Below the pieces are notes generated by a model. It saw only the letters and a list, made by a program, of their open reading frames with translations, was not told where the DNA came from and did not search any database. 36,827 bases of DNA from a virus. Below are positions 97 to 36,827 of the stretch, piece by piece. The stretch is from IMG/VR virus record IMGVR_UViG_3300029122_000022, one strand, 5' to 3'. How positions within the stretch are numbered: the first letter of the stretch is position 1; every line of letters begins with the position of its first letter. Position numbers and translations under genes: made by a program.

Positions 97-99
97 ATG
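1..99. repeat. Terminal overlap, copy 1: identical to 36729-36827 (circular closure or short direct terminal repeat)
   Basis: The first 99 nt and the last 99 nt of the window are identical base for base. Unique length is 36,728 bp. Confidence 0.95.
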
Positions 100-3464: not shown

Positions 3465-4180
3465 TTAAATCTGGCAGTAGCGGCAATTGCGTAACGATCG
3501 ACGATCGTTTAATAATCGATGCTGGGTTTTGCCCCGAGGTCGTGCCAAGGGGGTCGGCGTTATTGCTTACCCACGCCCACACGGATCACACAAAGGCCAT
3601 CCAAAGGTTCGAGGGCATACCTATATATGCCGGGAGGGTTACAAGCGAAGCGATAGCCCAAAAGTGGCCGTTTTTGGCGGTCAACATTTTGGAATGTGAG
3701 GACGACGGGCTGCCCAATCCAACGTATCGGTTACCGTACGATGCGGCGCCGGGTGACGAGTATTTCGTGCGCCCGATAAACGTAAAGCACGACATCCCCT
3801 GTATCGGGTTCGATATTACGCACGATGGGGAACGCATACTGTATGCGACGGATTTCAATGCGTTTCGGGAGGAGGTCGACGTGCGGGACTACACGGCGCT
3901 GTACTTGGAGTGCAACAACACGTTGACTCCCGAGGATTTCGCAGACCTCTACTTTACGGAGGAGAAACCGAAGGACGAGTTCCACAGGCGTAAGTCGTAC
4001 TACAACCACTGCAACGTCGGGTATCTGCGTATGCTGTTCGAACGTGCGGGGTTCTCCGAGGACAACCCGTGCGACATACCGTTGACCCTGTTGCACAAAT
4101 CGACGTATTACTACCACGCACACCCCGAGGAAATCGTGAAGTTGTGTAAGATTGCAAACGTACAAAATCCACTTTTATAA
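3449..4180 (+). CDS. Metallo-beta-lactamase-fold hydrolase/nuclease
   Basis: N-terminal beta-strand region followed by the HxHxDH motif (LLLTHAHTDHTKA). Further His/Asp residues lie downstream (NVKHD, YATD). Confidence 0.8.
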   Translation: MDVRIIKSGSSGNCVTIDDRLIIDAGFCPEVVPRGSALLLTHAHTDHTKAIQRFEGIPIYAGRVTSEAIAQKWPFLAVNILECEDDGLPNPTYRLPYDAAPGDEYFVRPINVKHDIPCIGFDITHDGERILYATDFNAFREEVDVRDYTALYLECNNTLTPEDFADLYFTEEKPKDEFHRRKSYYNHCNVGYLRMLFERAGFSEDNPCDIPLTLLHKSTYYYHAHPEEIVKLCKIANVQNPLL

Positions 4181-4672: not shown

Positions 4673-5272
4673 ATGGAAAACTTCATGATTAAGGGTGCCC
4701 CGACGTGCCGTGTTGCCTACCCTCGTGGTCTCTTCGAGAAAACGCAAGTGAAGGGCGGCGTAGGCAAACCCAAGTACAACGCAATCATCCTTATTCCGAA
4801 GGACGATGCGGAGAAGGTCGCACAGGTGAACGAGTTCTACATGAAAGCGTTCAAGCAGTTGCAGGACACGGGCTTCAAGTCGAAGACGCCGAAGGGTATC
4901 AACCCGAAAAACAACTGCTTACAGGATGGTGACGAGTACGCCGACGAGAAGGAGGGCATGGACGCATTCCGCGGCTACCTCATGTTGAAGGTAGGCAGCA
5001 AGAACTTCCGCCCGATCGTTACGGACGTGCAGAAACGCATCATCATCAACGACGTTCCGCTGCCGGACGTAGAAGTTGAGCGTCTGTCCGACGAGGAGCT
5101 CCACGACGGCGACTACATCTTCGCAAACGTTTCGTTTTGGATATACAACAACTCGGCTGCACAGGGTATCGGCTGCAACATTCACGCCGTTATGCGTGTT
5201 AAGGAGGGTGAGCAGGTCGGCGGAATGTCGAAGAGCGTTGACGACTACATCAACCCGGCCGACTACGAGTAG
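4673..5272 (+). CDS. ssDNA-binding protein, DUF2815 / T7 gp2.5-like
   Basis: N-terminus (CRVAYPRGLFEK...GKPKYNAIILIPKDD) resembles the DUF2815 signature. Acidic-aromatic C-terminal tail (DDYINPADYE). Sits immediately upstream of the family A polymerase, as in the known DUF2815-PolA modules. Confidence 0.6.
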   Translation: MENFMIKGAPTCRVAYPRGLFEKTQVKGGVGKPKYNAIILIPKDDAEKVAQVNEFYMKAFKQLQDTGFKSKTPKGINPKNNCLQDGDEYADEKEGMDAFRGYLMLKVGSKNFRPIVTDVQKRIIINDVPLPDVEVERLSDEELHDGDYIFANVSFWIYNNSAAQGIGCNIHAVMRVKEGEQVGGMSKSVDDYINPADYE

Positions 5273-5376
5273 TACGTTTCGACTGTACGTTAAACAGTCG
5301 GGTAGCGAGCACAGAGCACGTAACGTGCGCGGGGGCGGGTCCCGCACTCGCACAATTCTCTTAAATCCACACACAT

Positions 5377-9624: not shown

Positions 9625-10090
9625 TGACAAGGCCATAACGCGTTTAGCGCCCTACTCCGGCTTGAGGTTATTCTCTTGGGCGCTTAAACGCATAGTGAGA
9701 ACCAACGACAAGGACGAGACTATTACAAGTCAGCTCGAAACAGTAAGACTTTTACTAACGGAGAAGGTACCATCGCACGTAATAAAATACGCCTATTATA
9801 GGCTGCCGGAAGCAAAGATACTCAAATCATCCGAGGAGGCTATACACGTTTTGTCGGAGAACTTCGGGTCCCGGGATTTTTGGGTCTCGGTATACCCGTG
9901 TACGGAGAGGGGGTGCATACGTCTCGCCGTAGAGTGCCTGTTGCTGCAAGGTGGGTCCCCGTCTTGCATATCCGAAAAACTCAAAGTTACGGAGAGGACG
10001 GTGTATAATTTACGTACGAAAGTTGTTCGTAGGGAGCTGGATTTAAAATCGAAACCTAATGATACTCAACATATCCAGGAAAGCGTATGA
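9575..10090 (+). CDS. Putative transcription regulator with a C-terminal HTH (sigma-70 region 4 / LuxR-like)
   Basis: The C-terminal segment SCISEKLKVTERTVYNLRTKV looks like a helix-turn-helix. The ORF track starts it at TTG 9572; the first ATG is at 9575. Overlaps the primase 3' end by about 50 nt. Confidence 0.4.
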   Translation: MTTTDLILKESRKFGLDDKAITRLAPYSGLRLFSWALKRIVRTNDKDETITSQLETVRLLLTEKVPSHVIKYAYYRLPEAKILKSSEEAIHVLSENFGSRDFWVSVYPCTERGCIRLAVECLLLQGGSPSCISEKLKVTERTVYNLRTKVVRRELDLKSKPNDTQHIQESV

Positions 10091-10337
10091 TAGCTTTTCG
10101 GCTGTTCAACGTCTCGCGACGAACGGGAAACGAGTAGTAGATAAGCACGTTTCGACTATCGAAGAGTTTTACGAAACGTACGACTCGATAGCTGAAAACT
10201 GCGAGGCTATCATAGTAGATGAAACGGATGTTGTGTTTAACAACGACGTAGTTAATGCTGCGATATGCCCCGTAGTTACTTTACGCGTAGAGATTGATTG
10301 CGAGAAACACACACATAAATTTTTAGTATATGAGTAA
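10059..10337 (+). CDS. Hypothetical protein (92 aa)
   Basis: ATG ORF overlapping both neighbours by a few codons. Confidence 0.55.
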   Translation: MILNISRKAYDSFSAVQRLATNGKRVVDKHVSTIEEFYETYDSIAENCEAIIVDETDVVFNNDVVNAAICPVVTLRVEIDCEKHTHKFLVYE

Positions 10338-10764
10338 CAAAAAAGTAGAGGATTGGGTCGCTAAAGTGAAAGCGGAAAAAGACTACAAAATCACAAAGAC
10401 CCTTCGACGTAGGCAAAACTACATAGAAAAACCCGTATCCGAGACTACCGTAGCACGTAGACTTCGAGAGGTTGTAAAAGAAGCCGGGGGTATGATCCTC
10501 AAAATGCATCCCCTTACAAATAAGGGGGTTCCCGACTACCTCGTACACGTAGCAGGTCGAACCTTTTACGTGGAGACAAAAACCACAGGCGAGGAATGTT
10601 CCGCGGCACAGGTAGCCATGCAGGCAGAGCTTAAAAAACACGGGATCGAGACGTACGTACTCGACTCTCGGTTAATTAATTTTTACGATTTGTACGCGCA
10701 GTCGTATAAAACGTACGAAATGAACGAAAACTCAAAGTTTTACCATAAAAGCAAAAAATTATGA
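10330..10764 (+). CDS. VRR-NUC domain nuclease
   Basis: PD-(D/E)xK pattern GVPDYLVH...FYVETKTTGEECSAAQ...G, typical of VRR-NUC. Confidence 0.7.
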   Translation: MSNKKVEDWVAKVKAEKDYKITKTLRRRQNYIEKPVSETTVARRLREVVKEAGGMILKMHPLTNKGVPDYLVHVAGRTFYVETKTTGEECSAAQVAMQAELKKHGIETYVLDSRLINFYDLYAQSYKTYEMNENSKFYHKSKKL

Positions 10765-11219
10765 ACGTAGAAGTAATGAACAGACTGCTTTCCACGATCG
10801 AGATAGCAGCTATCAACGCGAAAGGTCGGCATTGGCTCGTCGCCGGGCCGGGATTCGATTCGGCGCATACCTTGTTGGATAAGGTGTGGTCCACGTTGCT
10901 TAACGGCGCTGACAAAGTAGCAGAGACCGTACGAACGTTGAGCGGGGTGCCCGAGTGGGATTCGGAAGTTTGGGCGAAAAACTCGTATGTGGGGTTGGAT
11001 AAATCAATATCCTCGCTCGAATCACGTAATAACGTAGAGGAGTTCTTACGGGCTACTCGTGATGAACTGAACAGGATTATCGCGTTGATTCATGACGAGA
11101 TAGATACGGGGGGTATCGATCCGACGTTTGAAAGCGATCTCACCGCTTTTACGTCCGAACTGCGTCATCATATACTGTTCCTCGACGGAACGATTGAAGA
11201 CTGGGAGTATGCAGAGTAA
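10761..11219 (+). CDS. Dps-like (ferritin superfamily) protein
   Basis: Segment NRLLSTIEIAAINAKGRHWLVAGPGFDSAHTLLDKVWSTLLNGADKVAETVRTLSG aligns by eye with the E. coli Dps ferroxidase region (NFHW..G..F..VH..LD......D..AER...LGG). The C-terminal DLTAFTSEL...LFL resembles Dps helix D. Confidence 0.55.
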   Translation: MNVEVMNRLLSTIEIAAINAKGRHWLVAGPGFDSAHTLLDKVWSTLLNGADKVAETVRTLSGVPEWDSEVWAKNSYVGLDKSISSLESRNNVEEFLRATRDELNRIIALIHDEIDTGGIDPTFESDLTAFTSELRHHILFLDGTIEDWEYAE

Positions 11220-11595
11220 CGAGAAACGTGTAGACAAGCTGGACGAGTATCAAACCCGAGCTATGAGCACGAGGTTGGACTCGTGTGACAACGTTACGTA
11301 TATGGCCTTCGGCCTTGTGGCCGAAGTGGGGGAGCTCGCCGACAAGATCGCAAAGTGGAAGCGTAAGAAGGAGGCGTACGTAACGGACGACCACCTCGTA
11401 TTCAACACGTGGCAAACGGACGAGGTTGACGAGAAGCACGTCGAGCTTATGAAAGAGCTCGGTGACGTTCTGTGGTTCGTGGCTGGTATTGCGGATCATT
11501 TTGACTACTCGTTGAGCGAGGTCGCCGAAATGAACTTGGAGAAGCTCGCTTGTCGTAAGTCGAAAGGTACAATCGTAACGCACGAGGATCATTGA
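11209..11595 (+). CDS. MazG-like nucleotide pyrophosphohydrolase
   Basis: Motifs EVGELADKI and ELGDVLWFV (the EExxE/D metal-binding helices of all-alpha NTP pyrophosphatases). Start chosen at the internal ATG 11209 (MQSNEKR). Confidence 0.8.
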   Translation: MQSNEKRVDKLDEYQTRAMSTRLDSCDNVTYMAFGLVAEVGELADKIAKWKRKKEAYVTDDHLVFNTWQTDEVDEKHVELMKELGDVLWFVAGIADHFDYSLSEVAEMNLEKLACRKSKGTIVTHEDH

Positions 11596-11655
11596 TTTGC
11601 TTTGTAGACGACTGCCCGTTCTGCGTGTGTAACGTCTGCGTAAAAGGAGGATGTT

Positions 11656-12993
11656 ATGTTTCAATTACGAGACTATCAAAAACGAGTGGTCGCCGAGGAG
11701 GTTCAACGAAAGAACCTCCTCGTGGTGGCCCCAATGGGGGCCGGTAAAACTATCTCGACGCTGACTGCGCTCGCCGCTCTTATAATCGACCCACGAGAGT
11801 GCGTAGAGAACGTACTGATAATCGCACCAAAACGTGTGGCACAGAGCGTGTGGGCGCAGGAGGCGTTAGATAACGGTACCGGGCTGAACGTTAGGTACTG
11901 CGAGAGGGCTTTGGACGTAAAGTTGTTCCTTCTCGAACCTGCTACACACCACATAGCTGTATGTAGTGTGACGAGGATCGAGGAGATACCACACGGATGC
12001 TGGGATTGCGTAGTTATCGACGAAAGCACGATGATGAAGCACCACAAGTCGAAGCGTTCGAAGGAGGCCCGACGTATATGCAACAAGGTGCCCCGACGTA
12101 TCGAACTGACGGGCACACCTATTCACAACGGGTACGAGGGTTTGTGGCACCAGCTGTTCCTGCTGGACGGTGGTAAGGCTGTCGGCCGCACGCTCGGCGA
12201 GTTCCGGTCACGGTATATGCGTGAGAAGTACAGGGTCAACGGCGTCGTTACGATCTTCGAGATCGACCCGGCGAAAATCCCGCAACTCATGCGCGACATT
12301 AAGCCACTCGTGTACGTAGTCGATGCGGACGTAAAGCTGCCCGACTGCTTGTATAAAGACGTGACGATTGACTTGCCGAAGAGCGTCAAGAAAAAATATG
12401 ACGGCTTCGAAGAGTCGTACGTCATGACGTATCGAGAGGAGACAGGAAAGGATGCGTACAGCGGTGAAGCCAAAACGCTGCTCGCCTTTTCACGTACCTC
12501 TCTCGGTATGAAGTTGCGCCAGTTCGCCTCGGGGTTTGTCTACACAGACGACGAACACAAAACGTACGTGACGACGCACCGAGAGAAAATCGAGGCGCTG
12601 AAGGAGCTCGTGGAGGGCTTCGACGGGGGTATCCTCGTGGCCTATCAATTTAAGAGCGAGTACGAGGAGTTGAAAAAAGCCTTTCCGAAGGCCCGGCGGA
12701 TCGAAACCGACGAGGATGTTGTATCGTGGAACGAGGGTCGTATGCCGATGGCTCTTGTTCACCCTGCGAGTGTAGGTCACGGCCTTAACCTCCAATTCGG
12801 TGGCCACGTACTCGTGTGGTTTAGCTTAACGTACGATGCGGAGTTGTACGCCCAGCTAAACAAACGTCTCCACCGTAGCGGGCAGACCTCTACGGTTAGT
12901 ATTATACATTTGATCGCAAGAGGTACGATAGACGAGCGCGTTCTGTCGATACTTCGGAAAAAAGAGAATTACGCAAAAGATTTTGTAAAATGA
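11656..12993 (+). CDS. SNF2/DEAD-like helicase
   Basis: Walker A APMGAGKT, DExx box VVIDEST, LTGTPIHNG, and motif VI HRSGQT...ARGTIDERV. It is one of the few genes here with an SD-like AAGGAGG upstream. Confidence 0.88.
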   Translation: MFQLRDYQKRVVAEEVQRKNLLVVAPMGAGKTISTLTALAALIIDPRECVENVLIIAPKRVAQSVWAQEALDNGTGLNVRYCERALDVKLFLLEPATHHIAVCSVTRIEEIPHGCWDCVVIDESTMMKHHKSKRSKEARRICNKVPRRIELTGTPIHNGYEGLWHQLFLLDGGKAVGRTLGEFRSRYMREKYRVNGVVTIFEIDPAKIPQLMRDIKPLVYVVDADVKLPDCLYKDVTIDLPKSVKKKYDGFEESYVMTYREETGKDAYSGEAKTLLAFSRTSLGMKLRQFASGFVYTDDEHKTYVTTHREKIEALKELVEGFDGGILVAYQFKSEYEELKKAFPKARRIETDEDVVSWNEGRMPMALVHPASVGHGLNLQFGGHVLVWFSLTYDAELYAQLNKRLHRSGQTSTVSIIHLIARGTIDERVLSILRKKENYAKDFVK

Positions 12994-13357: not shown

Positions 13358-14353
13358 TTAATCGAGAACCGGGAACGTTTGGAAGAAGTCAAGTTTTTTC
13401 ACCTCTATCACCGTATTGGGCATCTCGGTGGTAAACCTCGTAGTTATGGCGTACTGGGTGCCCGCAGGAACAGAGAACGATCCGAAGTTAGCTACGGCAG
13501 TAGGGCCGTAAAGGTGTACTGTTATAGCTTGGCTCGTTGTATTCCTTGCGATGACGTGTACCACCCCCGGTATTGCCGGCCCGAACGTTATATTCGTCCG
13601 CCCGGCCGTCAACGTCACGATGAACAGACCCGTAACGCCGATGTTACAACTACCGGTGAATAGGGTAACTCCCGAACGTACAAACGGAGCGGCATCGCAC
13701 TTAACAGGTGTAACGCTACCATCTGCTATTTGCGCATTACCTACCGCACCATTTGCAATCTTACCCGTAGTAACGGCGGCATCGGCAATCTTATCCGTGG
13801 TTACGGCTGCACTTTCAATCTTATCCGTAGTAACGGCTTCACCGGCAATCTTACCCGTAGTAACGGACCCATTTACGAGTTTTTCCCTGGTAATGGTGTT
13901 GTTCACAATAGCGCCACCGTTCACGTAAGGGATGTACCGGAATAGAGAGAGTACGGTCTCCGTTACGTTCGTAATGATGCGTATAGCTCCGCTATTAACT
14001 CTGCTGTTTCGGATAACGTTGTTGATGTAAAACGGCTGAACGAGCCCCGTGCTCAAAGTTCTGTCATCGTCGTCAATTGGCGCAACGTACATATCGTCAC
14101 CCTCGGAGAACCCGCCATTATCGCTGGTCGCCCCCTCGTAGTAGTACAGTTTACCCTTGTAAGCAATCACCCCGGGGGTAAGTATACCCCCGACTATGTG
14201 CAGACCGCTTACGATCTTGATAGTCGTGGCGCTATTAAGCGTCTCCGATGCGAGAGCCTCGGTGAGGCCATCCCATACGTTTTGCAAATCCGAAAGTCTG
14301 AACGGCCTTTTGAGGCCCGGATTTGCTGGATTGATTGTCTTAATTCCGGACAT
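13358..14353 (-). CDS. Tail fibre / receptor-binding protein
   Basis: Last gene of the tail module. Carries about six tandem 10-aa repeats (xxxVTTxKIA) in the middle and a divergent C-terminal domain. Confidence 0.6.
   Translation of the reverse strand: MSGIKTINPANPGLKRPFRLSDLQNVWDGLTEALASETLNSATTIKIVSGLHIVGGILTPGVIAYKGKLYYYEGATSDNGGFSEGDDMYVAPIDDDDRTLSTGLVQPFYINNVIRNSRVNSGAIRIITNVTETVLSLFRYIPYVNGGAIVNNTITREKLVNGSVTTGKIAGEAVTTDKIESAAVTTDKIADAAVTTGKIANGAVGNAQIADGSVTPVKCDAAPFVRSGVTLFTGSCNIGVTGLFIVTLTAGRTNITFGPAIPGVVHVIARNTTSQAITVHLYGPTAVANFGSFSVPAGTQYAITTRFTTEMPNTVIEVKKLDFFQTFPVLD
13703..13903 (-). repeat. In-frame 30-bp (10-aa) tandem repeats within the tail fibre gene
   Basis: Peptide NNTITREKLV NGSVTTGKIA GEAVTTDKIE SAAVTTDKIA DAAVTTGKIA NGAVGNAQIA DGSVTPV. 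Confidence 0.8.
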
Positions 14354-15615: not shown

Positions 15616-16023
15616 CTACAAATGAATAGCGAGTTTTCTGTTACCTATGCTGTTCTCTTTACACGAAACGTGTACCCAGCTGTACCCTTTTTCGTCGATT
15701 ACTTGATCGTAATCAAACGCACTGTAAGCGATCATTTCAAATAGCTTACGGTTTCCTTCCACACTACCCGTAGTAATGTCGGCCGCCTCCCCCCGAAGAT
15801 GCTGCGAGTTCGCTACACCACCAACCGCAGCGTTAAGCGCCTTACACCTGTACCCGCTGTTTACAGTTATAGGTTTGCCCCACGCTCGTCTGATGGGGTC
15901 GAGGCAGTGGTCCATTAAGTACTTTAAACGTTTCGTTTCCTCCGGCCCGGGGGTATTATCTATCCCCCGGGACTTCGCTGTGTTGGAATGCGTCAATTCG
16001 TCCAACGTAAAAAATTCGGCCAT
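15616..16023 (-). CDS. Endolysin, peptidase M15 (L-alanyl-D-glutamate / D-Ala-D-Ala peptidase family)
   Basis: SGYRC..LN..VGGVANSQHLRGEAADI ... WVHVS: the Zn-binding H-x6-D ... H signature of Peptidase_M15_3/4. Confidence 0.85.
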   Translation of the reverse strand: MAEFFTLDELTHSNTAKSRGIDNTPGPEETKRLKYLMDHCLDPIRRAWGKPITVNSGYRCKALNAAVGGVANSQHLRGEAADITTGSVEGNRKLFEMIAYSAFDYDQVIDEKGYSWVHVSCKENSIGNRKLAIHL

Positions 16024-23832: not shown

Positions 23833-24309
23833 TTACTTTTTGAACGGGTTTTTGTTTTCTTTTGCGGGCTGCGCGTCGGCCTCCGTCTTTGCGGGCTGCG
23901 CGTCGGCCTCCGTCTTTGCGGGCTGCGCGTCGGCCTCCCCTTTGAGTGCGGCCATGATCTCATCCTCCTCGGATTTCGGGATCGGTGCGGGGCCCTCATC
24001 CTTCTTTTCGGCTGCCTTCTTCCCCTTCTGTACGGGAACGTAGGCGTCTTTGAAGAGCTCGTTGAACGCGTCGAGGTCCTTCGCGTACGAGCGGAGCTTT
24101 TCGTTCGTTACGTCGCTCTCGGTGATCTCCTTGATGGCCACAAACTGCGTTGCGTCATCAAAGACCATGTTTCGGGTACGTACAGCCTCCTCGGCTGCCC
24201 GCTTGGTGCGGAACATGACGCCTTCCGTCGTTACGTGGAGCGTTTTGTATCGGCGAACCTGCGCCGCGATGTCCGCAATCTGTTTGATGTTGAATTTAGG
24301 TGCTGCCAT
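23833..24309 (-). CDS. Hypothetical virion-module protein with a Lys/Glu/Ala-rich repeat tail (158 aa)
   Basis: Lies between the capsid and sheath genes. The C-terminus carries three EADAQPAKT repeats. Confidence 0.6.
   Translation of the reverse strand: MAAPKFNIKQIADIAAQVRRYKTLHVTTEGVMFRTKRAAEEAVRTRNMVFDDATQFVAIKEITESDVTNEKLRSYAKDLDAFNELFKDAYVPVQKGKKAAEKKDEGPAPIPKSEEDEIMAALKGEADAQPAKTEADAQPAKTEADAQPAKENKNPFKK
23861..23941 (-). repeat. 27-bp tandem repeat x3 (encodes EADAQPAKT x3)
   Basis: TTTGCGGGCTGCGCGTCGGCCTCCGTC occurs twice perfectly; the third unit diverges at its end. Confidence 0.9.
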
Positions 24310-24368: not shown

Positions 24369-26558
24369 TTACTCGGCGAGAGCGGGAACAACGAGTGCGA
24401 CACCCTTTCCGCCTTCACGGGCAACGGTTGCGCCTGCTGACATCCAACCCGAGTACGTGTAGCCGTAGTTGGTCGGGTCCGGCATGACGATCACGTCGAT
24501 CGTTCCGATACCTGCGATGATCTCGTTCTCGACGAACGCAACACCTGCGCCAACCGTGTTCGCGACGGTAACAGCCGGGCTGATAGCCTCGGCGGTGCCG
24601 TCGGCGTCTACGGAGTAGTCGGCGTACATAGCCGGGTCGAGCTCGGGTTTGCCGCTCGTGGTGTTGTAGCGTGCAACGGGGTTACGCGGTCCGATCTTCA
24701 TACCGTTCCACTCGAAGCCCGAGCCAGTTGCACCGGACAGGTTACGCGTGAGGATCGACTGGAAGATTTGGTTAGCCGCCGCCATCGTGTATATCTGCGA
24801 CGGGAGCACAACCTCCACACGACGGTTATTCATGTCGAAGTTCTGCGTGAGGAACGCACCCATGAGGTTGATAAGGTCCGTCGGAACGAGTTTCTTGATG
24901 TTCACTTTCGAGTTCGGGGCCTCGATCGGGAACAGCCCCTGCGACGGTACGCTGTCACCGGACGTGAAAATCTTCGACACACCTGTGGTGTTCGCAGCCA
25001 CCTGGAGGATGAACGTAGCCACCTTCGCCATGAGCGAATCCATAGCGATCGTCCAACCCCACGACTGCTTGTCGTACGCGAGGATGGCAAGCTCCGCGTT
25101 CTGGAACGTCATCGGCTGGATGGAGAACACCTGCCGGGCGATCGTCCGCTTAATGTCCTCGTAGAAGTAGCGAGGAGCGTTGACCGGAGTGACCGAACCA
25201 ACGTACGTTGCGGGATTTACGCCCGACTCAACGTAGATGGCACCCTCGCGGTCCGACATCGGAACGAAACGTACGGAGCGCATGAACGTGTTGTCCGGGA
25301 GCAGCTTCTCGTAGAAGAGCGACAGCCACTTGATGACACCGAGGTCAGCAGCAGCCAGCGTGTTGGCGGCTGCACCGCCAGCGGCGCACTCGACGAGAAC
25401 GCGAAGTCCGTTTTTACGTTCGTGGGTCACCCCGTCGGTGAAGTTCGTCGCCGAAGCGAGCGTTACCATACGCTCGTCGTTCAGCATCGAGCAGGTGAGC
25501 ATACGCACCGTTTCGGTGTTCTCTGTGGTTTTGTCTGCGGCCGTAGCGCCAGTACGGAACGCCGCGCCGAGCTGGTGCAAACGCTTCTGAAAATCAGCGT
25601 CGCAATTCAACTCTCTGAAAGTCTTTTCCATGTTGATGGGTTTTGTTTGGTTAAGAATCTGTTGTTCGTGCCACGTCATACCGTTAGGCAGTCGGCGTCC
25701 GTGTTTTTGTGCGTCGTCATCGTCGTCTCCGTCCTCGACACCCGCGTTAACAGGTCTCGGTTCCGGATCGCTGTTCGGTTCCGGGTCGCTGTTCGGTTCC
25801 GGGTCGCTGTTCGGTTCCGGATCGTTGTTCGGTTCCGGATCGTTGTTCGGTTCCGGATCGCTGTTCGGTTCCGGATCGCTGTTCGGTTCCGGATCGCTGT
25901 TCGGTTCCGGGTCGCTGTTCGGTTCCGGGTCGCTGTTCGGTTCCGGGTCGCTGTTCGGTTCCGGATCGTTGTTCGGTTCCGGATCGCTGTTCGGTTCCGG
26001 ATCGCTGTTCGGTTCCGGATCGGACTCTTCGAGACTGGCTTCGATACGTTTGTATTCTGTCTCGGAGAATCCCATCGTAAGGTAACGTACCTCGCAACCG
26101 TCTTTGCGCATACCTTCTACGATCTCACGATCAGCTTCCGACTCTACGTCACGATCCTCGATCGGTCGACATTCGATGTTGGCAGGCTGTGCCACGAGCG
26201 AAACCTCCATTGCGAGGTACGTGTCCGCGACGAAAACTCCATCTTCGTTCTCGTTACCGAGCGCGAATCCGCCGATTGATACGTAACGGAGGATCCCCTG
26301 TTCGTACTTCTCGAACGCGATGTCAGCGTCTTCGAATCGCTCCATAAAAGCGAGACGGCCAACGAACGCGTCTCCGATACGTTCTCGTTCGATAACTTTG
26401 CCGACGGCCACACCTCTGTGCCCCTCGTGCTCTCGGTCGTAGCGCAGCAACGGGTTAGCGTCGAAACGCGACCAGTCGATAGCGTCCGGCGGTATAACGT
26501 TGCGGTTCATGTCGACAGCGCCCGTGGTGAGGACCTGTCTTTTCTTTGATACCCTCAT
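24369..26558 (-). CDS. Prohead protease (S78/HK97-type) - acidic repeat linker - HK97-fold major capsid protein fusion (729 aa)
   Basis: N-terminal protease motifs: LRYDREHEGH, YVSIGGF, MEVSLVAQPANIE. The middle holds 15 xDPEPN hexapeptides. The C-terminal ~420 aa has the size and character of an HK97-type capsid protein and lies at the capsid position. Confidence 0.75.
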   Translation of the reverse strand: MRVSKKRQVLTTGAVDMNRNVIPPDAIDWSRFDANPLLRYDREHEGHRGVAVGKVIERERIGDAFVGRLAFMERFEDADIAFEKYEQGILRYVSIGGFALGNENEDGVFVADTYLAMEVSLVAQPANIECRPIEDRDVESEADREIVEGMRKDGCEVRYLTMGFSETEYKRIEASLEESDPEPNSDPEPNSDPEPNNDPEPNSDPEPNSDPEPNSDPEPNSDPEPNSDPEPNSDPEPNNDPEPNNDPEPNSDPEPNSDPEPNSDPEPRPVNAGVEDGDDDDDAQKHGRRLPNGMTWHEQQILNQTKPINMEKTFRELNCDADFQKRLHQLGAAFRTGATAADKTTENTETVRMLTCSMLNDERMVTLASATNFTDGVTHERKNGLRVLVECAAGGAAANTLAAADLGVIKWLSLFYEKLLPDNTFMRSVRFVPMSDREGAIYVESGVNPATYVGSVTPVNAPRYFYEDIKRTIARQVFSIQPMTFQNAELAILAYDKQSWGWTIAMDSLMAKVATFILQVAANTTGVSKIFTSGDSVPSQGLFPIEAPNSKVNIKKLVPTDLINLMGAFLTQNFDMNNRRVEVVLPSQIYTMAAANQIFQSILTRNLSGATGSGFEWNGMKIGPRNPVARYNTTSGKPELDPAMYADYSVDADGTAEAISPAVTVANTVGAGVAFVENEIIAGIGTIDVIVMPDPTNYGYTYSGWMSAGATVAREGGKGVALVVPALAE
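25759..26022 (-). repeat. 18-bp tandem repeat, 14 full units plus partial ends (GGTTCCGGRTCGYTGTTC), in-frame (S/N)DPEPN
   Basis: Counted unit by unit. There are three sequence variants (A..CT, G..CT, A..TT) arranged in blocks. Confidence 0.95.
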
Positions 26559-27094
26559 GAGTTCTCGTATTTGATTACAATGTTTTCGAGCATAGCTTCG
26601 AGTTTATTTTTGTCTTTCGGGTCAAAACTTACAGACCCCTTGTAGCTTACTTTGTGCACGTCGACCAAAACGGACTCTGCTCCACGCGTTCCGTACGTTG
26701 TGTCTGTCGGCAGATTAACGAACTGCAAATTGAGATCGTGTTGCCGCTTAACCTCGTCGAGTACGTCAGTCTGTTCGATACAACGTACAACATCCTCGGA
26801 TAAGTCAAGTAGCTCCGCCTGTTTGCCTCCGTCCGGCGAGTACGAGTAGTTCGTTACAGGCAGCAGAACGTACATGAAGAGATTAAAATAGAAACGTATT
26901 CCACCTCCAAACGATATGCCACCTTCATCCTCCGGGTCGTCTGTACCTATTACGTGTATCACGATAGCAGGTAAAGGTGTGTCAACCACTACGGTTGTAC
27001 CTTCCGCAGCCCGGGTCGGAAATATGTTTGCCTGCCTCAACGCTGGCCACTGTCTCAACGCCGCGGCTACTGCGGCTCCTAAATATCCTACCAT
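26555..27094 (-). CDS. Hypothetical head/neck protein (possibly DUF3168-like head-tail joining)
   Basis: 179 aa with ATGA coupling to the protease-capsid gene. The N-terminal pattern is only loosely reminiscent of tail-terminator/DUF3168 proteins. Confidence 0.4.
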   Translation of the reverse strand: MVGYLGAAVAAALRQWPALRQANIFPTRAAEGTTVVVDTPLPAIVIHVIGTDDPEDEGGISFGGGIRFYFNLFMYVLLPVTNYSYSPDGGKQAELLDLSEDVVRCIEQTDVLDEVKRQHDLNLQFVNLPTDTTYGTRGAESVLVDVHKVSYKGSVSFDPKDKNKLEAMLENIVIKYENS

Positions 27095-27096
27095 CT

Positions 27097-27651
27097 TTAC
27101 GTATTAAGCCATCCGTACGACTTCATTCTTTGTTTCAAAAGCCTCGATGGGGAGTTCAAAACGTACTTACTCGGACGCATGAACGGTCTCGCCTTGGGCT
27201 TCACACCTAAATGAACTCGCGTACCTTTTTGGGAGAGGGGTGGCCGGATGGTAGCTTTGTATCTACCAACCGGGCCTTGCCCCGTATTTTGTATCTCTGC
27301 ATACTCCACGTCGTTGTAGAGCGCGACGATGCCGTGCCTCCCATACATTCCGTACGTAGTTTTCAAACCGCGTAACAGTCGCCCTGTTCGGTGTAACTTC
27401 TTATACCGTAGAACCGACTCTGCGTTTTCAAGTACGTTCGTTCTTACTTTGTAATACTTACTGTGTCCCTTTGACCTCTGAACAATACCACGTCGATCGG
27501 CCCATTTTTTACCTGTCGACGGGTCTGTTTCGCTTAAAAATGCGTTTTGTGAAGTCCACAACCACGTTTGCGACACTTCTTTTAGCATTCCCTTTTTGAG
27601 GTAGCGAGCCAGGTCGTTTGTCTCTCTCACTAACGTTTTGAGCGTTTTCAT
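27097..27651 (-). CDS. Virion morphogenesis protein (HK97 gp10 / Mu gpG-like?)
   Basis: Motifs LHRTGRLLRGL...YAEIQNTG...ARPFMRPS resemble gp10-family head-tail joining proteins. The start overlaps the portal ORF by 143 nt and is uncertain. Confidence 0.4.
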   Translation of the reverse strand: MKTLKTLVRETNDLARYLKKGMLKEVSQTWLWTSQNAFLSETDPSTGKKWADRRGIVQRSKGHSKYYKVRTNVLENAESVLRYKKLHRTGRLLRGLKTTYGMYGRHGIVALYNDVEYAEIQNTGQGPVGRYKATIRPPLSQKGTRVHLGVKPKARPFMRPSKYVLNSPSRLLKQRMKSYGWLNT

Positions 27652-28828
27652 AGCCTGTAACGTCGTCCGGATCGAGACCCGTTTTGAGGATAAAATCCCT
27701 CGTAGCCCCGAGGCCGAGCTCTTTAATCATTTTAACGTACGCTTCAACGTCACCGATGTCGATGTAGCTGAGCGGTTTTACCTTGAACGTACAGTTCTCG
27801 ATGTCCGGCTCGTCGAAAATGTACGCGAGTTTGATCTTATTCTCGCGCAAGTTCAACCAGTCTTGAACGTCGATAGCGTCGCTCTCCTGTATGTCACGGA
27901 ACAACTTCAAGTGAGCCCGCACTAAACGTTCAGAGTTCGTGTTCTTTTCGCTCATTCCCAGCAACGACGAACCAAGAACGAGCTGCATGATCGAGCCGCG
28001 AAGCTGTTCGATGTTCTCTTTGAAGATACGGAACGTGTCCGCAGCCGTACCTGTGCCTACGTTCTCCAATTCAAGGTCCTTTACAACCTTACCGGAGATT
28101 TCGTCGGTGGATTTTCCGGAAATGATTACGGTTCCGAGACCGATCTGCGCGGCGCTTTGCTCGGCGGCCTGCTGCATCTTTTCGTCTCCGTTCTCGTAAT
28201 ACATGACAGACTGCTGGTACGCTTGATACTGCGAAGCGGTCTGCCAGTTGTTCTGCGCATTCATTAAGTTAATGTAGTCGCGGCAGATAGGTTCGAGGAG
28301 TCCCAACGTGTCCTCCGACTTGTACGACGTCTGCATCCAAAACAGGTTCACGTGGTTTTTCACGAGAAAAACGTCCTGTATGTCGTACGTCATCTTACGT
28401 ACAGCTCGGTTCACTGTGTCGAGGTTTCGAAGCGGGTAGATGAACGTTTCACCGTTCCTGTCCACGCCTATCACACGAGCGTACGTGAAGTTCGCCAAAC
28501 CTCTTTGGTAAATCAAGTCCCGCATAGTGGGCGAGTTGGCCAATTTGTCGGTCAGATCGGTGCGCTCTTTGCCGTTTACGTAAACGGCAAACGTACGGGA
28601 TCGTAACGGCCTCAAACGTTTGTCGATAGCCGACCGTATGATCGTGCTACTCTTCATCACGTACGAGTAGAGTGCGTCGAGACCTACGTAATCGGAGTAC
28701 AGTCGGGCCCTCTGAACAGCGCTCCACCACGTAGCCATCGTGAGCTCGAACGCGTAGTTCTGCGGTAGAGCTTGAATCTTGGCCCCCGTAGCACCAAAGT
28801 AGTTGAGTATGTTGTACGGGTTTTTCAT
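27509..28828 (-). CDS. Portal protein
   Basis: 439 aa in the head module between the terminase and the protease-capsid gene. Called on size and position; no motif-level proof. Confidence 0.55.
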   Translation of the reverse strand: MKNPYNILNYFGATGAKIQALPQNYAFELTMATWWSAVQRARLYSDYVGLDALYSYVMKSSTIIRSAIDKRLRPLRSRTFAVYVNGKERTDLTDKLANSPTMRDLIYQRGLANFTYARVIGVDRNGETFIYPLRNLDTVNRAVRKMTYDIQDVFLVKNHVNLFWMQTSYKSEDTLGLLEPICRDYINLMNAQNNWQTASQYQAYQQSVMYYENGDEKMQQAAEQSAAQIGLGTVIISGKSTDEISGKVVKDLELENVGTGTAADTFRIFKENIEQLRGSIMQLVLGSSLLGMSEKNTNSERLVRAHLKLFRDIQESDAIDVQDWLNLRENKIKLAYIFDEPDIENCTFKVKPLSYIDIGDVEAYVKMIKELGLGATRDFILKTGLDPDDVTGYENAQNVSERDKRPGSLPQKGNAKRSVANVVVDFTKRIFKRNRPVDR

Positions 28829-29406: not shown

Positions 29407-30162
29407 TTACGGTATAGTTTTTTCGTCGGCAACGGGCGGCTCCTCCAACGTAGCTTGCGAATCGCCGGACGTATTCGGGTCTTCCGCTGCGCCGATGTTC
29501 GTTCTCGCTTGAAGTTTCTGTGCGGCGGTGAGGGTTTGGGCGGCGAATTTAACAGCAGTATCGTCAACAATCTTATATGCTACTGGAGCTGAAATCGATC
29601 TTTCTGACTCCGTAACAGACCAAAGCGTGTTCACGTACCTCAAAGAGCACCATACCCCCGCCGTTTTGGGGCCTCGTTGAAACGGAATTACTCCATTTGT
29701 AGTAGGGAGTATCAGTATGGTTGCTGCCGATAGCTTCGTCTTATCCTCTTCCGTCAACGTGTAGGGGAACCTCGTACCCTCGGGGAGGGCAAAGAACAGA
29801 CCCGAAACGTCGAGACCGGGGACGAGTTTTTCAGACGTTACGGCGCCATCGGCCAGCATTTCGGTCGTGATAGACCCAGGTGCGATTGCACCGCTGATCT
29901 CCGTAGTCGAAACGATGAGCTGCTTGGTAGCTTTGGTCACTACCATCTGCTGCTGCGACGATCCGAGGATGCACGAAAACGTTATGCTCTCGTCGTTCTC
30001 CGCGATACGAAAGTAACGACGCTTCGTCGTGCTATCCTCGCCGTCAACCATTTCGACGACATCCGCGTTGAGTACCGCAAAGAACTGGGCGTCGCTCAAC
30101 GTTTTGCCTCCCATATAGTTTTGAAGGCGTACAAGTCCTTCGATATTAAACGCTCGTGTCAT
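29407..30162 (-). CDS. Hypothetical structural protein carrying a fibre-type repeat motif (251 aa from MTRAFNIEG)
   Basis: ATGA coupling at 30159-30162. Contains GSITTEMLADGAVTSEKLVPG, the same 10-aa motif family as the tail fibre. Confidence 0.5.
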   Translation of the reverse strand: MTRAFNIEGLVRLQNYMGGKTLSDAQFFAVLNADVVEMVDGEDSTTKRRYFRIAENDESITFSCILGSSQQQMVVTKATKQLIVSTTEISGAIAPGSITTEMLADGAVTSEKLVPGLDVSGLFFALPEGTRFPYTLTEEDKTKLSAATILILPTTNGVIPFQRGPKTAGVWCSLRYVNTLWSVTESERSISAPVAYKIVDDTAVKFAAQTLTAAQKLQARTNIGAAEDPNTSGDSQATLEEPPVADEKTIP

Positions 30163-30572
30163 TTTTTGTGCTCTATACTGTGTAAATACTCGTCGTCGTT
30201 TTTGTTTTTCCGCTCGAGAACAGGGCACTTCGACGAATCGCCCTTGCAGAACTCGCACTCGTGGGCGCGATTGATCGCGCTTTTATTTTTTGCGTGCTTT
30301 ACTTCGAGTACCTGCTTATCGTTCGAGATAACCGCAATGTAGTTATCCTTTCCGATAATCAACTCCTGCATCGCTTTCAAACGTTTTTCGTAGAACTCCT
30401 GTTGCTGCTGCAACGCGTCTACGGTACTGCGTAGTGACTGGACCTCTTTTTCAACCGCTTCGGCGTTTTTGATGCGTGCTGTTTGCTTACGAAACATGAC
30501 CCACATCACCACCGAGCTACCACCACCGATCACCCCAACGCAAGCAAGGATGATTTGCACCAAATAGTCCAT
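30159..30572 (-). CDS. Type II membrane protein with coiled coil and Cys-rich C-terminus (i-spanin-like or other envelope protein)
   Basis: N-terminal TMD (LVQIILACVGVIGGGSSVVMWVMF), heptad-like region (EKEVQSLRSTVDALQQQQEFYEKRLKAMQ), and C-terminal CEFCKGDSSKC. The ATG at 30572 overlaps the upstream stop. Confidence 0.5.
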   Translation of the reverse strand: MDYLVQIILACVGVIGGGSSVVMWVMFRKQTARIKNAEAVEKEVQSLRSTVDALQQQQEFYEKRLKAMQELIIGKDNYIAVISNDKQVLEVKHAKNKSAINRAHECEFCKGDSSKCPVLERKNKNDDEYLHSIEHKK

Positions 30573-32780: not shown

Positions 32781-33080
32781 AACCTGTGAACAAAGCATAC
32801 CTATATTTATATAGGCGGGACGCCGGTTCGTCGATCCGCAGCAGGCCCCAGCCGAACGGGCAGGCGGGTCGGTGTAGAGGCGAGCCGCCCAAACGTTTAT
32901 TAAAAAATTTTATAAACGTAATTTTCCCATTTTAATTTTTTTTCTGCGGCTCGGATGTCGGTATGCGCCGCCGCCCCGTCGCCCTGTTTACCCTCGAAAC
33001 GTCGAATCGACGAAACGTTTTTGCCCGTTTTCGTTACGTTTCGGCGATTCGACTTTTCGACTATACGTCGAATCGGCGGC

Positions 33081-33220
33081 AAAGCGTTTCGGCGGCAACG
33101 TTTTTCAGCGGCAACGTTTTTCGGCGTTTCGTCTGCACGTTGTGATCGGATCGAAACGACGGTAAAGCGTTTCGGCGGCAACGTTTTTCGCCGTTTCGTC
33201 TGCACGTTGTGATCGGATCG
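33081..33220. repeat. Two ~57-bp direct repeats (AAAGCGTTTCGGCGGCAACGTTTTTCG[G/C]CGTTTCGTCTGCACGTTGTGATCGGATCG)
   Basis: Copy 1 is 33081-33153 and carries an internal 16-bp duplication of GCGGCAACGTTTTTC-type sequence. Copy 2 is 33164-33220. They differ by 1 substitution otherwise. Confidence 0.9.
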
Positions 33221-33246
33221 GGCCGATTATGCGGTGCGACGCGCGA

Positions 33247-33288
33247 TTCGGCGGATCGGCGGCCTACCCGCGACGCCGATCCGCCGAA
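33247..33288. repeat. Perfect 15-bp inverted repeat (TTCGGCGGATCGGCG-N12-CGCCGATCCGCCGAA)
   Basis: Arms at 33247-33261 and 33274-33288, checked base by base. Confidence 0.9.
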
Positions 33289-33370
33289 AAGCGAGAAAAC
33301 AGGCGAAAATCGCCGAAACGGCGAAAAGATCGGGACGCCTGGAAAATATTCTAAATGTCCGGTATTGTGG

Positions 33371-33441
33371 TGTTCCACGTGGAACGTCTATAAGTTGTTC
33401 CACGTGGAACGCCGATAAGTTGTTGAGTTTCAACAACTTAT
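33371..33441. promoter_or_regulatory. Operator-like array: 25-bp tandem x2, each containing the 14-bp palindrome GTTCCACGTGGAAC, followed by a 12-bp-stem hairpin
   Basis: Palindromes at 33372-33385 and 33397-33410. Hairpin is ATAAGTTGTTGA-GTT-TCAACAACTTAT at 33415-33441. Confidence 0.8.
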
Positions 33442-34681: not shown

Positions 34682-35299
34682 ATGAAAAACGTAAAAAACA
34701 ACTCAGAACTCGCAGCCGTTGAGGCTGCAAACGTTGAGGCCGTCGCACCCGAAGAGGTTGCGCGTGAACTGTCCCCGATCGAAAAGAAGGCTGCCGCCGT
34801 GCTTCGCGCAAAGTTGCCGCACCTGTCTGAAAACGGCCTTAATTTTGAAAAGCGTACGGGAAACTTTTTCCGTGCGACGATTCAGACACAGGACGACGGG
34901 ACGGAAAAAGTGTCGCGTCTCGTCGTGGCTGATGCTGACATCAAAGGCATGACCGACGCGCTGGCCGCCGAAATGTCGATAAAGCGCGCCGCCGCCCGTA
35001 TCATGTCCGCCGAGTCGAACGCCGCGAAACTCGAAAAGAAGATCGAAGAGGCTCGCGCAGAGTTGGCCGCGCTCGAAGCCGAGAAGGCCGCCGCTGTTGC
35101 TGAACACGACAAGGCCGCCGCCGCCGTCGGAGCGTACGAGTTGCCCGAAAAGGCCGCCCGGGAAACGTTGTCGGCCAAGGCCGCCGCCGCCGAATCGAAG
35201 GCCGCCGCCGCCGAATCGAAGGCCGCCGCCGTGATGTCCGAGAACGAGCGTCTGCGCGCAATGCTGATTGCCGCCGGGCTTGACCCGGACAAGATGTAA
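34682..35299 (+). CDS. Ala-rich coiled-coil protein (205 aa), function unknown
   Basis: Long Ala/Glu/Lys helical region with a tandem AAAAESK x2. The antisense ORFs here are shadows of its GC-rich codons. Confidence 0.6.
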   Translation: MKNVKNNSELAAVEAANVEAVAPEEVARELSPIEKKAAAVLRAKLPHLSENGLNFEKRTGNFFRATIQTQDDGTEKVSRLVVADADIKGMTDALAAEMSIKRAAARIMSAESNAAKLEKKIEEARAELAALEAEKAAAVAEHDKAAAAVGAYELPEKAARETLSAKAAAAESKAAAAESKAAAVMSENERLRAMLIAAGLDPDKM

Positions 35300-36728: not shown

Positions 36729-36827
36729 AACGGTTAGCTCCGGAAAATAGAAACGTGCGGATCGTGCCCGCGCCGGAGCGCGAAACGTTCGAATAGTTCG
36801 AACGTACTTAAAAACTTAAACAAAATG
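36729..36827. repeat. Terminal overlap, copy 2 (re-reads early cassette A and the ATG of the first gene)
   Basis: Identical to 1-99. Ends in ATG, matching the start codon at 97-99. Confidence 0.95.

What the first reader, a model, noticed from the sequence alone, without database searches (positions are those of the whole stretch)
24369..26558. Prohead protease fused to the major capsid protein through a (S/N)DPEPN x15 linker, with a plausible internal start for capsid-only protein
A single 729-aa ORF carries three parts:
- an HK97/S78-type prohead protease domain (His in REHEGH, Ser in YVSIGG, EVSLVAQPAN);
- a highly acidic Pro-rich linker encoded by 14.7 tandem 18-bp units (25759-26022);
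- a ~420-aa capsid-sized domain.

No separate protease, scaffold or capsid gene exists elsewhere in the genome. Protease-capsid fusions are known from domain databases, but a long perfect hexapeptide array as the tether is unusual. The repeat variants form blocks, which suggests recent expansion or contraction.

An in-frame ATG at 25631 (MEKTFRELN...) follows the repeat. Its leader, AACCAAACAAAACCCATCAAC, is A-rich like the leaders of other genes here. The gene may therefore make both a minority full-length fusion, delivering protease into the procapsid, and abundant capsid-only protein. This would be comparable in logic to the nested in-frame lambda C/Nu3 products. The dual-product idea is inference.
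Basis: partly seen in the sequence, partly recalled or inferred. Interest (0 to 1): 0.65.

Follow-up and report, generated by a model that had tools for sequence, protein, structure and literature searches.

The report
Protease–capsid fusion gene with nested start
One phage gene encodes the head-maturation protease, a hypervariable acidic repeat tether and the major capsid protein in a single reading frame. Comparative evidence suggests ribosomes also start inside it to make capsid protein alone, an untested twist on a known viral gene-nesting trick.

Summary
ORF 24369-26558 (-) encodes 729 aa in three parts:
- an S78/HK97-type prohead serine protease (aa 1-137; His47, Ser94);
- a disordered acidic linker holding 15 (S/N)DPEP(N/R) units (18 bp each);
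- a C-terminal HK97-fold capsid protein (Foldseek E 1e-12 to solved phage capsids).

The fusion is not new. It is the rule for this capsid clade (78 clusters at 50% identity, nearly all 600-900 aa), and other phages have it too (Arthrobacter AM/AU/AN, Nocturne116 ORF18).

A repeat tether is also normal in this family. Relatives carry other acidic units in 2 to at least 13 copies. Many public scaffolds break inside the array, so copy numbers are soft.

The dual-product idea gains real comparative support:
- Met310 is invariant among close relatives.
- Its 30-nt leader is A-rich and nearly G-free in 11 lineages, and this holds at synonymous sites (G3: 2 observed, 14.6 expected).
- The surrounding mRNA is among the least structured stretches of the gene in all six lineages folded (rank 1-2 in three).
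- The site ranks first of 192 internal in-frame ATGs in this genome.

This fits Shine-Dalgarno-independent initiation in Bacteroidia. No experiment has shown it. I rate it a new variant of the nested protease/scaffold scheme.

The parts
24369..26558 (-). Full ORF: 729 aa, 79.9 kDa, pI 4.5; protease, linker and capsid protein in one frame
   Evidence: The same fused architecture occurs in 217 close relatives and in nearly all of 78 representatives at 50% identity.
26148..26558 (-). Prohead serine protease core, aa 1-137. His47 codon is 26418-26420, Ser94 codon 26277-26279, Glu118 codon 26205-26207.
   Evidence: PHROG 617 and 4523 match aa 16-194. Relatives hit Pfam Peptidase_S78 (14 of 59, best 8e-11) and head-maturation-protease PHROGs. 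pLDDT 80-90. Motif conservation.
26025..26147 (-). aa 138-178: low-confidence extension after the protease core (predicted strand 156-161 and helix 166-175)
   Evidence: Distant relatives have a conserved strand-helix here ('LSA...LIN.Y'), followed in most by a Met.
25755..26024 (-). 15 x 18-bp tandem repeat encoding (S/N)DPEP(N/R), aa 179-268: 30 acidic residues, 1 basic, 30 Pro; predicted disordered
25632..25754 (-). aa 269-309: Asp run (EDGDDDDD), then the family-invariant motif R288-x2-P291-x-G293-M294-x-W296-H297-E298, then a variable N/Q/K/T-rich stretch
25632..25667 (-). Candidate Shine-Dalgarno-independent translation initiation region (-36 to -1): A-rich, almost G-free, unstructured
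25629..25631 (-). In-frame internal ATG (Met310), proposed start of the capsid-only product
   Evidence: Invariant in 48 close relatives. Present at or within 3 residues of this column in relatives down to about 25-30% identity.
24369..25631 (-). Nested ORF: 420 aa, 45.3 kDa
25413..25631 (-). aa 310-382: helical N-terminal region (five predicted helices, pLDDT 63-79), possibly a short delta-like scaffolding domain. The boundary is approximate.
   Evidence: Matches from distant homologues start near aa 394.
24372..25412 (-). HK97-fold capsid core, about aa 383-729 (37 kDa); long spine helix at aa 497-522
26555..26558 (-). ATGA overlap: the start of the fusion ORF overlaps the stop of the upstream 179-aa ORF (26555-27094), which suggests translational coupling
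   Evidence: The leader score of this start is 4, against 12 for the internal site.

Best explanation
The gene is an in-frame fusion of three parts: an HK97/S78-type prohead protease, a disposable acidic tether and an HK97-fold major capsid protein. It is most likely read as two nested cistrons.

Proposed steps (steps 1-4 are inferred, not shown):
1. A weak start at 26558, coupled to the upstream ORF, gives a small amount of the 80-kDa protease-tether-capsid protein.
2. A strong internal initiation site at ATG 25631, of the Bacteroidia type (A-rich, unstructured, no Shine-Dalgarno sequence), gives bulk 45-kDa capsid protein. This product carries a 73-aa helical N-terminus that may act like the HK97 delta domain.
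3. The fusion co-assembles through its capsid domain, so the protease ends up inside the procapsid on a flexible leash.
4. After assembly the protease cuts itself and the N-terminal parts away. A likely site is the first basic, conserved motif after the linker (GRR-LPNGMTWHE). A second may lie near the conserved ERK|NG at aa 380-384.

The linker would exist only in the minor product and is discarded. This would explain why its unit sequence and copy number drift freely by slippage while staying acidic and free of Lys/Arg.

Shown: the domain identities, the fusion, the repeat polymorphism, and the conservation and nucleotide-level signature of the internal site.
For: Domains.

Internal start:
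- Met310 is invariant in 48 relatives. In relatives of 25-35% identity a Met is kept but shifts by up to 3 residues relative to the conserved KTFxEL helix. A start codon can shift like that; a structural residue would not.
- The 24 nt upstream rank in the top 0.1-0.9% of all in-frame windows for A-rich/G-poor composition in 12 genes.
- The bias holds at synonymous sites. In the 8 codons upstream, pooled over 6 lineages, G-ending codons number 2 against 14.6 expected (P about 1e-7), and A-ending codons 29 against 11.3. In the three GC-rich lineages the G3 test gives P = 0.003-0.009 each.
- The gene-wide peak of this statistic falls within 2 codons of the Met in those three lineages.
- The predicted MFE of -30..+21 is -2.5 kcal/mol against a gene mean of -12.3 (rank 2 of 712). 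The same site ranks 1 to 23 of 619-781 windows in five other lineages.
- Across 11 lineages G frequency is 0-12% from about -27 to -1 and A frequency is 42-72%, although the sequences themselves differ.
- The site has the best leader score of 192 internal in-frame ATGs in the genome, and ties the best of 35 gene starts.
- In four intermediate-clade genes the two most start-like in-frame Mets lie at the two domain borders.
- All window genes lack Shine-Dalgarno sequences and have A-rich leaders. Bacteroidia start selection relies on upstream adenines and low structure (PMC6847099, PMC13000457). A relative sits in an Alistipes MAG.

Precedent for nesting: lambda C/Nu3, HSV-1 UL26/UL26.5 and HFTV1 gp17/gp17.5, the last shown by Ribo-seq.
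Against: - There is no expression, proteomic or ribosome-profiling data for this phage or any relative.
- The lineages compared are homologous, so they are not statistically independent.
- An N/Q/K/T-rich flexible segment would be somewhat A-rich anyway. In the AT-rich lineages the synonymous test alone is not significant (L009, L014).
- For Nocturne116 ORF18, a fusion of the same layout, the authors explain the mature capsid by cleavage of the precursor and do not invoke an internal start.
- A 1:1 polyprotein is physically possible. My own estimate is about 14 MDa of cargo in a T=7 shell.
- The 420/436-aa 'capsid-only' proteins in databases are artefacts of N-gaps and are not support.
Confidence: 0.65

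Rival explanations
1. Polyprotein only. Every capsid subunit is made as the 80-kDa precursor, so protease and capsid protein are present 1:1. Each precursor is trimmed after assembly. Met310 and its A-rich surroundings are just a polar flexible hinge or cleavage region.
For: - The fusion is conserved in frame across the whole clade.
- Nocturne116 ORF18 is interpreted as precursor cleavage at R242|S243.
- The region before Met310 is disordered in the model.
Against: - The codon-level bias (avoidance of G-ending synonymous codons) peaks exactly at the Met in three GC-rich lineages.
- RNA structure is lowest or near-lowest there in most lineages tested (ranks 1-23 of 619-781 windows).
- The Met is retained while the residues around it change, and its position shifts.
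- The site is the best of 192 internal ATGs.
- None of this is expected from selection on the protein alone.
Confidence: 0.25
2. Two products, but from two transcripts. An internal promoter inside the gene gives a shorter mRNA for the capsid-only protein, as with herpesvirus UL26.5.
For: Herpesvirus precedent. The A-rich stretch would then be the 5' leader of that mRNA.
Against: - There is no Bacteroidetes-type TAnnTTTG box on the coding strand anywhere in 24369-26558.
- There is no sigma-70-like promoter or terminator on that strand within the gene.
- These are consensus scans only.
Confidence: 0.06
3. The fusion or the long array is an assembly artefact or a decayed gene, and the real phage has separate protease and capsid genes.
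For: - Assemblers often fail in this array: five scaffolds carry an N-gap there, 100 N in the four measured.
- The array is 270 bp long.
Against: - More than 200 independent relatives keep one open frame, including alleles with only 2-5 units that short reads span.
- Repeat changes always keep the frame, in steps of 18 or 33 nt.
- An independent contig at 93% identity also has 15 units.
Confidence: 0.02

Closest known systems
Lactococcus phage Nocturne116 ORF18 (c2-like): protease + central scaffolding domain + MCP in one ORF (PMC13595954)
   Same: Same three-part order. The gene is the only source of the main shell protein. The N-terminal parts are removed from the mature capsid.
   Different: - No detectable sequence similarity. 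A tblastn search of 50,697 phage records found only one unannotated gut phage, at 32% identity.
- Here the middle part is a disordered acidic tandem repeat rather than a scaffold-like domain.
- A conserved start-like internal site precedes the capsid part. No internal start is discussed for ORF18.
'Major capsid and protease fusion protein' of actinobacteriophages (Arthrobacter clusters AM, AU, AN; Rhodococcus RRH1) (PMC5513430); also the Lactobacillus phage SA-C12 729-aa 'major capsid protein'
   Same: A single gene fuses the protease and the capsid protein. BFVD full-length structural matches include SA-C12 and several 'prohead protease' entries of 500-730 aa.
   Different: - Different hosts and no sequence-level relation.
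- Expression of those fusions has not been dissected, as far as I found.
- SA-C12 has in-frame starts with AGGAGG-like sites at codons 163 and 304, but about two such sites are expected by chance.
Nested protease/scaffold genes: lambda C/Nu3, Mu I/Z, HSV-1 UL26/UL26.5, HFTV1 gp17/gp17.5
   Same: The logic is the same. A minor full-length product carries the protease. An abundant in-frame C-terminal product is made from an internal start. Shared C-terminal sequence brings the protease into the procapsid. The portal here is Mu-type (PF06074).
   Different: - In those systems the nested product is the scaffold and the capsid gene is separate. Here the nested product would be the capsid protein itself.
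- The internal start here is predicted, not measured.
- Mu I/Z is cited from my own knowledge (Grimaud 1996). The other three are as cited.
HK97 gp4 protease and gp5 (delta domain + capsid)
   Same: S78-type Ser/His protease. A capsid protein with an N-terminal helical extension and no separate scaffold gene. Gene order portal, protease, capsid.
   Different: - HK97 has two separate genes, and its protease is recruited non-covalently.
- The helical extension here is about 73 aa, against 102 in HK97.
- The capsid domain matches no Pfam capsid family.

Membership tests
Peptidase S78 (HK97-type prohead serine protease, PF04586) | Significant match to the family profile | tested here: inconclusive
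   The window protein itself has no Pfam hit. 14 of 59 homologues hit PF04586 (best 8.1e-11). 15 of 59 hit PHROG 80 'head maturation protease'. The query hits protease-capsid PHROGs 617 and 4523 at 1.7e-8 and 8.9e-5.
Peptidase S78 (HK97-type prohead serine protease, PF04586) | Conserved catalytic Ser and His | tested here: met
   Ser94 (xSIGG) is kept in 69 of 70 residues aligned at that column. His47 is invariant in the 48 close relatives, and a His lies 6-9 residues before the invariant Gly53 in distant ones. Catalysis itself was not tested.
Peptidase S78 (HK97-type prohead serine protease, PF04586) | Solved-structure relative by sequence | tested here: not met
   A profile of 11 N-terminal domains found nothing in the PDB at E up to 10.
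HK97-fold major capsid protein | HK97 fold (spine helix, P and A domains, E-loop) | tested here: met
   Model pLDDT is 60-95 over aa 311-729. All 50 listed PDB matches are phage, archaeal-virus or encapsulin shells, E down to 1.4e-12, TM 0.5-0.68 normalised to the target.
HK97-fold major capsid protein | Match to a curated capsid sequence family (e.g. Pfam Phage_capsid) | tested here: not met
   No Pfam hit in the query or in any of 59 homologues. One homologue hits PHROG 2263 'major head protein'. By sequence this is a separate capsid family.
HK97-fold major capsid protein | Presence in virions as the main shell protein | not testable with these tools
   No cultured relative is available. This is the only capsid-like gene found in a complete 36.7-kb genome.
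Protease-scaffold-capsid single-ORF fusions | N-terminal protease and C-terminal capsid protein in one uninterrupted frame, conserved among relatives | tested here: met
Protease-scaffold-capsid single-ORF fusions | Central scaffolding domain | tested here: inconclusive
   The centre here is a disordered acidic repeat. Distant relatives have 200-400 aa E/K-rich middles. A 73-aa helical segment precedes the capsid core.
Nested in-frame protease / C-terminal product genes (lambda C/Nu3 type) | Functional internal in-frame start giving an abundant C-terminal product | tested here: inconclusive
   Strong comparative and compositional signature, but no expression data.
Nested in-frame protease / C-terminal product genes (lambda C/Nu3 type) | Nested product is the scaffolding protein, with the capsid encoded separately | tested here: not met
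   The nested ORF is the HK97-fold capsid protein.

The most novel reading that the evidence does not exclude
A large clade of gut Bacteroidota phages has collapsed the Mu-type head genes (protease I, nested scaffold Z, capsid T) into one open reading frame. That frame is still read as two or three nested cistrons through Shine-Dalgarno-independent internal initiation. The capsid protein itself would be the nested product, and the protease would be delivered by covalent fusion to a minority of capsid subunits. The hypervariable acidic repeat would be a disposable, protease-resistant leash present only in that minority product.
Probability: 0.5. Interest if true: 0.65.

Novelty: new variant of a known kind. 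Interest (0 to 1): 0.55.

Why it matters
- Protease-capsid fusion genes are annotated in many phages, but how they set the protease-to-capsid ratio is unknown. A nested capsid cistron would answer that. It would also extend the lambda, Mu and herpesvirus nesting scheme from scaffold to capsid protein.
- The site is a clean natural example of strong internal initiation in Bacteroidia, where start selection rules are still being worked out.
- There is an annotation consequence. Gene callers report either one 'prohead protease' or, when scaffolds break in the repeat, a 420-aa orphan.
- The repeat array is a marker for strain-level variation and a recurrent assembly breakpoint in gut viromes.

Tried and rejected
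- **Shallow-alignment model.** AlphaFold2 on 48 close relatives failed (pLDDT 30). It worked only after adding distant representatives.
- **PDB by sequence.** Searches with the protein, two full-length profiles and an N-terminal profile gave only low-complexity noise or nothing.
- **Capsid-only proteins in databases.** The 420/436-aa proteins (P0121, P0198-P0211) looked like natural separate capsid genes. In all five scaffolds checked they result from an N-gap inside the repeat (100 N in the four measured), so I rejected them as evidence.
- **SA-C12 internal starts.** Two in-frame starts with Shine-Dalgarno-like sites were found, but about two are expected by chance, so this stays a lead only.
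- **Other signals.** Scans for an internal promoter or terminator, Rfam and tRNA searches found nothing in the gene.
- **Locus fetching.** The search for related loci with the diverse alignment failed because no stretch was conserved enough. One look-up returned no DNA.
- **Downstream gene.** The 158-aa gene has no Pfam, PHROG or PDB relative.
Full report
**1. The observation**

The minus-strand ORF 24369-26558 is real and encodes 729 aa. Tandem Repeats Finder reports an 18-bp unit at 25757-26022 with 14.8 copies, 96% matches and score 476. Read in codon register this is 15 hexapeptides, (S/N)DPEP(N/R), at aa 179-268 (nt 25755-26024). The AGC/AAC and GAT/GAC variants are arranged in runs. The in-frame ATG at 25631 is Met310, 41 residues after the array, and 420 aa follow it. 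The window's last 99 nt repeat its first 99 nt, so it is a closed 36,728-bp genome.

**2. The three parts**

*N-terminus (protease).*
- The window protein has no Pfam hit apart from low-complexity PARP.
- Its aa 16-194 match PHROG 617 'major head protein' (a 626-position profile) and PHROG 4523 'major head and protease protein'.
- Among 59 homologues, 14 hit Pfam Peptidase_S78 (best 8.1e-11), and many hit head-maturation-protease PHROGs.
- One close relative is named 'prohead serine protease' by NCBI.
- His47, Ser94 and Glu118 are invariant among 48 close relatives. Ser94 is kept in 69 of 70 residues aligned at that column in the wider 78-sequence alignment.

*C-terminus (capsid).*
- It has no sequence-family match.
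- AlphaFold2 with a shallow alignment failed. With a 78-sequence diverse alignment the model has pLDDT 80-90 for aa 1-137, below 50 for aa 138-310 and 60-95 for aa 311-729, with a long helix at aa 497-522.
- All 50 listed Foldseek PDB matches are HK97-fold shells, from E 1.4e-12.
- The BFVD library adds full-length matches to other fused proteins of 500-730 aa, including the Lactobacillus phage SA-C12 'major capsid protein'.

*Context.* The neighbours fit a myovirus with a Mu-type head module: terminase, Mu-type portal, sheath (DUF2586), baseplate hub and tail fibre. No other ORF scanned matches a protease, scaffold or capsid family.

**3. The fusion and the repeat tether are family traits**

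- A search of 5.8 billion proteins found 217 relatives of 636-737 aa, mostly on contigs of about 37 kb.
- A search of 1.84 billion representatives with the capsid part alone found 78 clusters. Nearly all are 600-900 aa with the capsid domain at the C-terminus.
- In close relatives the linker is always an acidic repeat, but the unit differs: SDPEPN, EPAPEP, ETNASEETQAE or PVEAAAEGEGE, in 2 to 11 or more copies. Basic residues are essentially absent: in the 82 PVEAAAEGEGE-type linkers tabulated, one has a single basic residue and the rest have none.
- Within the SDPEPN lineage I saw 2, 4, 5 and 15 units at 85-98% identity outside the array.
- Scaffolds broken by an N-gap (100 N in the four measured) show at least 11-13 units on the flanks.
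- The window's 15 units are therefore plausible, and an independent contig at 93% identity also has 15. Short-read copy numbers remain soft.
- More distant relatives have a 200-400 aa charged, often E/K-rich middle that looks scaffold-like.

**4. The internal start**

All genes here lack Shine-Dalgarno sequences and have A-rich leaders. A relative lies in an Alistipes MAG. In Bacteroidia, start choice depends on upstream adenines and low mRNA structure (PMC6847099, PMC13000457).

Against that background:
- Met310 is invariant in the close family. A Met persists in relatives of 25-35% identity but shifts by up to three residues relative to the conserved helix that follows.
- The 24 nt upstream are in the top 0.1-0.9% of all in-frame windows of the gene for A-rich/G-poor composition in 12 genes.
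- The bias exists at synonymous sites. Pooled over six lineages, the eight upstream codons hold 2 G-ending codons against 14.6 expected (P about 1e-7) and 29 A-ending against 11.3. The G3 test gives P = 0.003-0.009 in each of three GC-rich lineages.
- The gene-wide maximum of this statistic falls within two codons of the Met in those three lineages.
- The predicted folding energy of -30..+21 is -2.5 kcal/mol against a gene mean of -12.3 (rank 2 of 712). The same site ranks 1 to 23 of 619-781 windows in five other lineages.
- In 11 lineages G is 0-12% and A 42-72% from about -27 to -1, with no conserved nucleotide sequence.
- In this genome the site ties the best of 35 gene starts. It scores 12, the sheath gene 8 and the annotated fusion start 4. 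It is first among 192 internal in-frame ATGs.
- In four intermediate-clade genes the two most start-like in-frame Mets lie at the two domain borders, right after the protease and right before the capsid part.
- The annotated start overlaps the stop of the upstream ORF (ATGA), which suggests coupled and probably modest initiation.
- No promoter-like box lies on the coding strand inside the gene.

**5. Interpretation**

I conclude, at about 0.65 confidence, that the gene makes two products. One is a minor 80-kDa protease-tether-capsid protein. The other is an abundant 45-kDa capsid protein from ATG 25631.

Several points are inference:
- Co-assembly would place the tethered protease inside the procapsid.
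- The invariant motif R-x2-P-x-G-M-x-W-H-E lies upstream of Met310, so it would exist only in the long product. It holds the first conserved basic residues after a linker almost free of Lys/Arg, and is a candidate release site.
- The 73-aa helical N-terminus may act as a short delta-like scaffold.

The main rival is a pure polyprotein with 1:1 stoichiometry. It explains the fusion but not the codon-level and RNA-structure signals. No expression data exist, and the lineages are related, so the statistics overstate independence.

**6. Relation to what is known**

- Protease-capsid fusions are described in Arthrobacter phage clusters AM, AU and AN and in Rhodococcus RRH1 (PMC5513430).
- Nocturne116 ORF18 has the tripartite protease-scaffold-capsid layout, with a mature N-terminus at residue 243 (PMC13595954).
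- Nested protease/scaffold genes are known in lambda and HSV-1. HFTV1 gp17/gp17.5 was recently shown by Ribo-seq. Mu I/Z is from my own knowledge.
- Possibly new here are three things: the nested product is the capsid protein itself, the start is Shine-Dalgarno-independent, and the tether is a hypervariable acidic repeat. I found no paper describing an internal start in a protease-capsid fusion in two of the six full-text searches that addressed it. That is not proof of absence.

**7. Verdict**

The fusion itself is ordinary. The nested-start reading is the interesting part, and it is now directly testable.

Noticed in passing
window 1-99 and 36729-36827: The last 99 nt are identical to the first 99 nt. 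The contig is therefore a circularly closed (or terminally redundant) complete genome of 36,728 bp.
   Followed up: partly
window 1-103, 502-604, 1384-1486, 2178-2280: Four copies (84-97% identical) of an element of about 103 nt lie directly upstream of four early plus-strand genes. Each contains a GC-rich palindromic core (CGCGCCGGAGCGCG) and ends in the A-rich leader. It is probably a repeated early promoter/operator module.
   Followed up: partly
window 23833-24309 (-), repeat 23861-23938: The conserved 158-aa gene just downstream of the fusion gene carries a perfect 27-bp x2.9 repeat (EADAQPAKT x3). Its unit and copy number also vary among relatives, and it is followed by a basic C-tail. 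It has no family or PDB match. It could be a decoration or scaffolding protein.
   Followed up: partly
L013 about 3700-3850; L023 2712-2811; L024 2730-2829; L025 2715-2814; L026 2681-2780: Public scaffolds of this phage lineage carry an N-gap inside the linker array (100 N in L023-L026; a run of X in the L013 translation). Databases therefore hold many spurious 420- or 436-aa 'capsid-only' proteins. Of the 15 listed members of the closest 97-member cluster, 11 are of this kind. A unit variant NNGPEP occurs in L023 and L024.
   Followed up: yes
L014, L019, L020, L021 (fusion genes of relatives at 27-34% identity): These genes have a second start-like in-frame Met directly after the protease domain, at about codon 165-170 (e.g. 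METIEKKE). More than half of the distant relatives keep a Met there. This suggests a third nested product, scaffold-like middle plus capsid. The window's clade lacks it.
   Followed up: partly
L018 9521-11710 (-) = Lactobacillus phage SA-C12 KU052488 24521-26710: The annotated 729-aa 'major capsid protein' follows the portal gene directly and is a structural match to the whole window protein. It has in-frame TTG163 behind a perfect AGGAGG, and ATG304 behind TGGAGG, just before a delta-domain-like MKTKKGLLEKRTALKEKL. About two such sites are expected by chance.
   Followed up: partly
window 27097-27651 (-) and 27509-28828 (-): The 184-aa ORF after the portal gene (weak match to 'tail completion/Neck1' PHROGs) overlaps the portal 3' end by 143 nt. 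The same overlap is seen in relative L013.
   Followed up: no
window 29407-30258 (-): This ORF is listed from a GTG. Its in-frame ATG at codon 33 has a far better A-rich, unstructured leader and is probably the true start.
   Followed up: no
window 13755-13866; 33073-33424; 35177-35231: Further tandem repeats: 30 bp x3.7 inside the tail-fibre gene; three short arrays (16, 19 and 25 bp) clustered at 33073-33424, a stretch with only short ORFs on either strand; and a perfect 21 bp x2.6 at 35177-35231.
   Followed up: no
window 15616-16023 (-): An endolysin-like gene (PHROG 894, 2.4e-35) lies inside the tail gene block, between tail-fibre-side genes and baseplate genes.
   Followed up: no
window 4673-12993 (+): The phage has its own replication set: an Enc34-type ssDNA-binding protein, a family A DNA polymerase with 3'-5' exonuclease, a VapE-like primase/helicase and an SNF2 helicase. 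So the Mu-type head module sits in a non-transposing genome.
   Followed up: no
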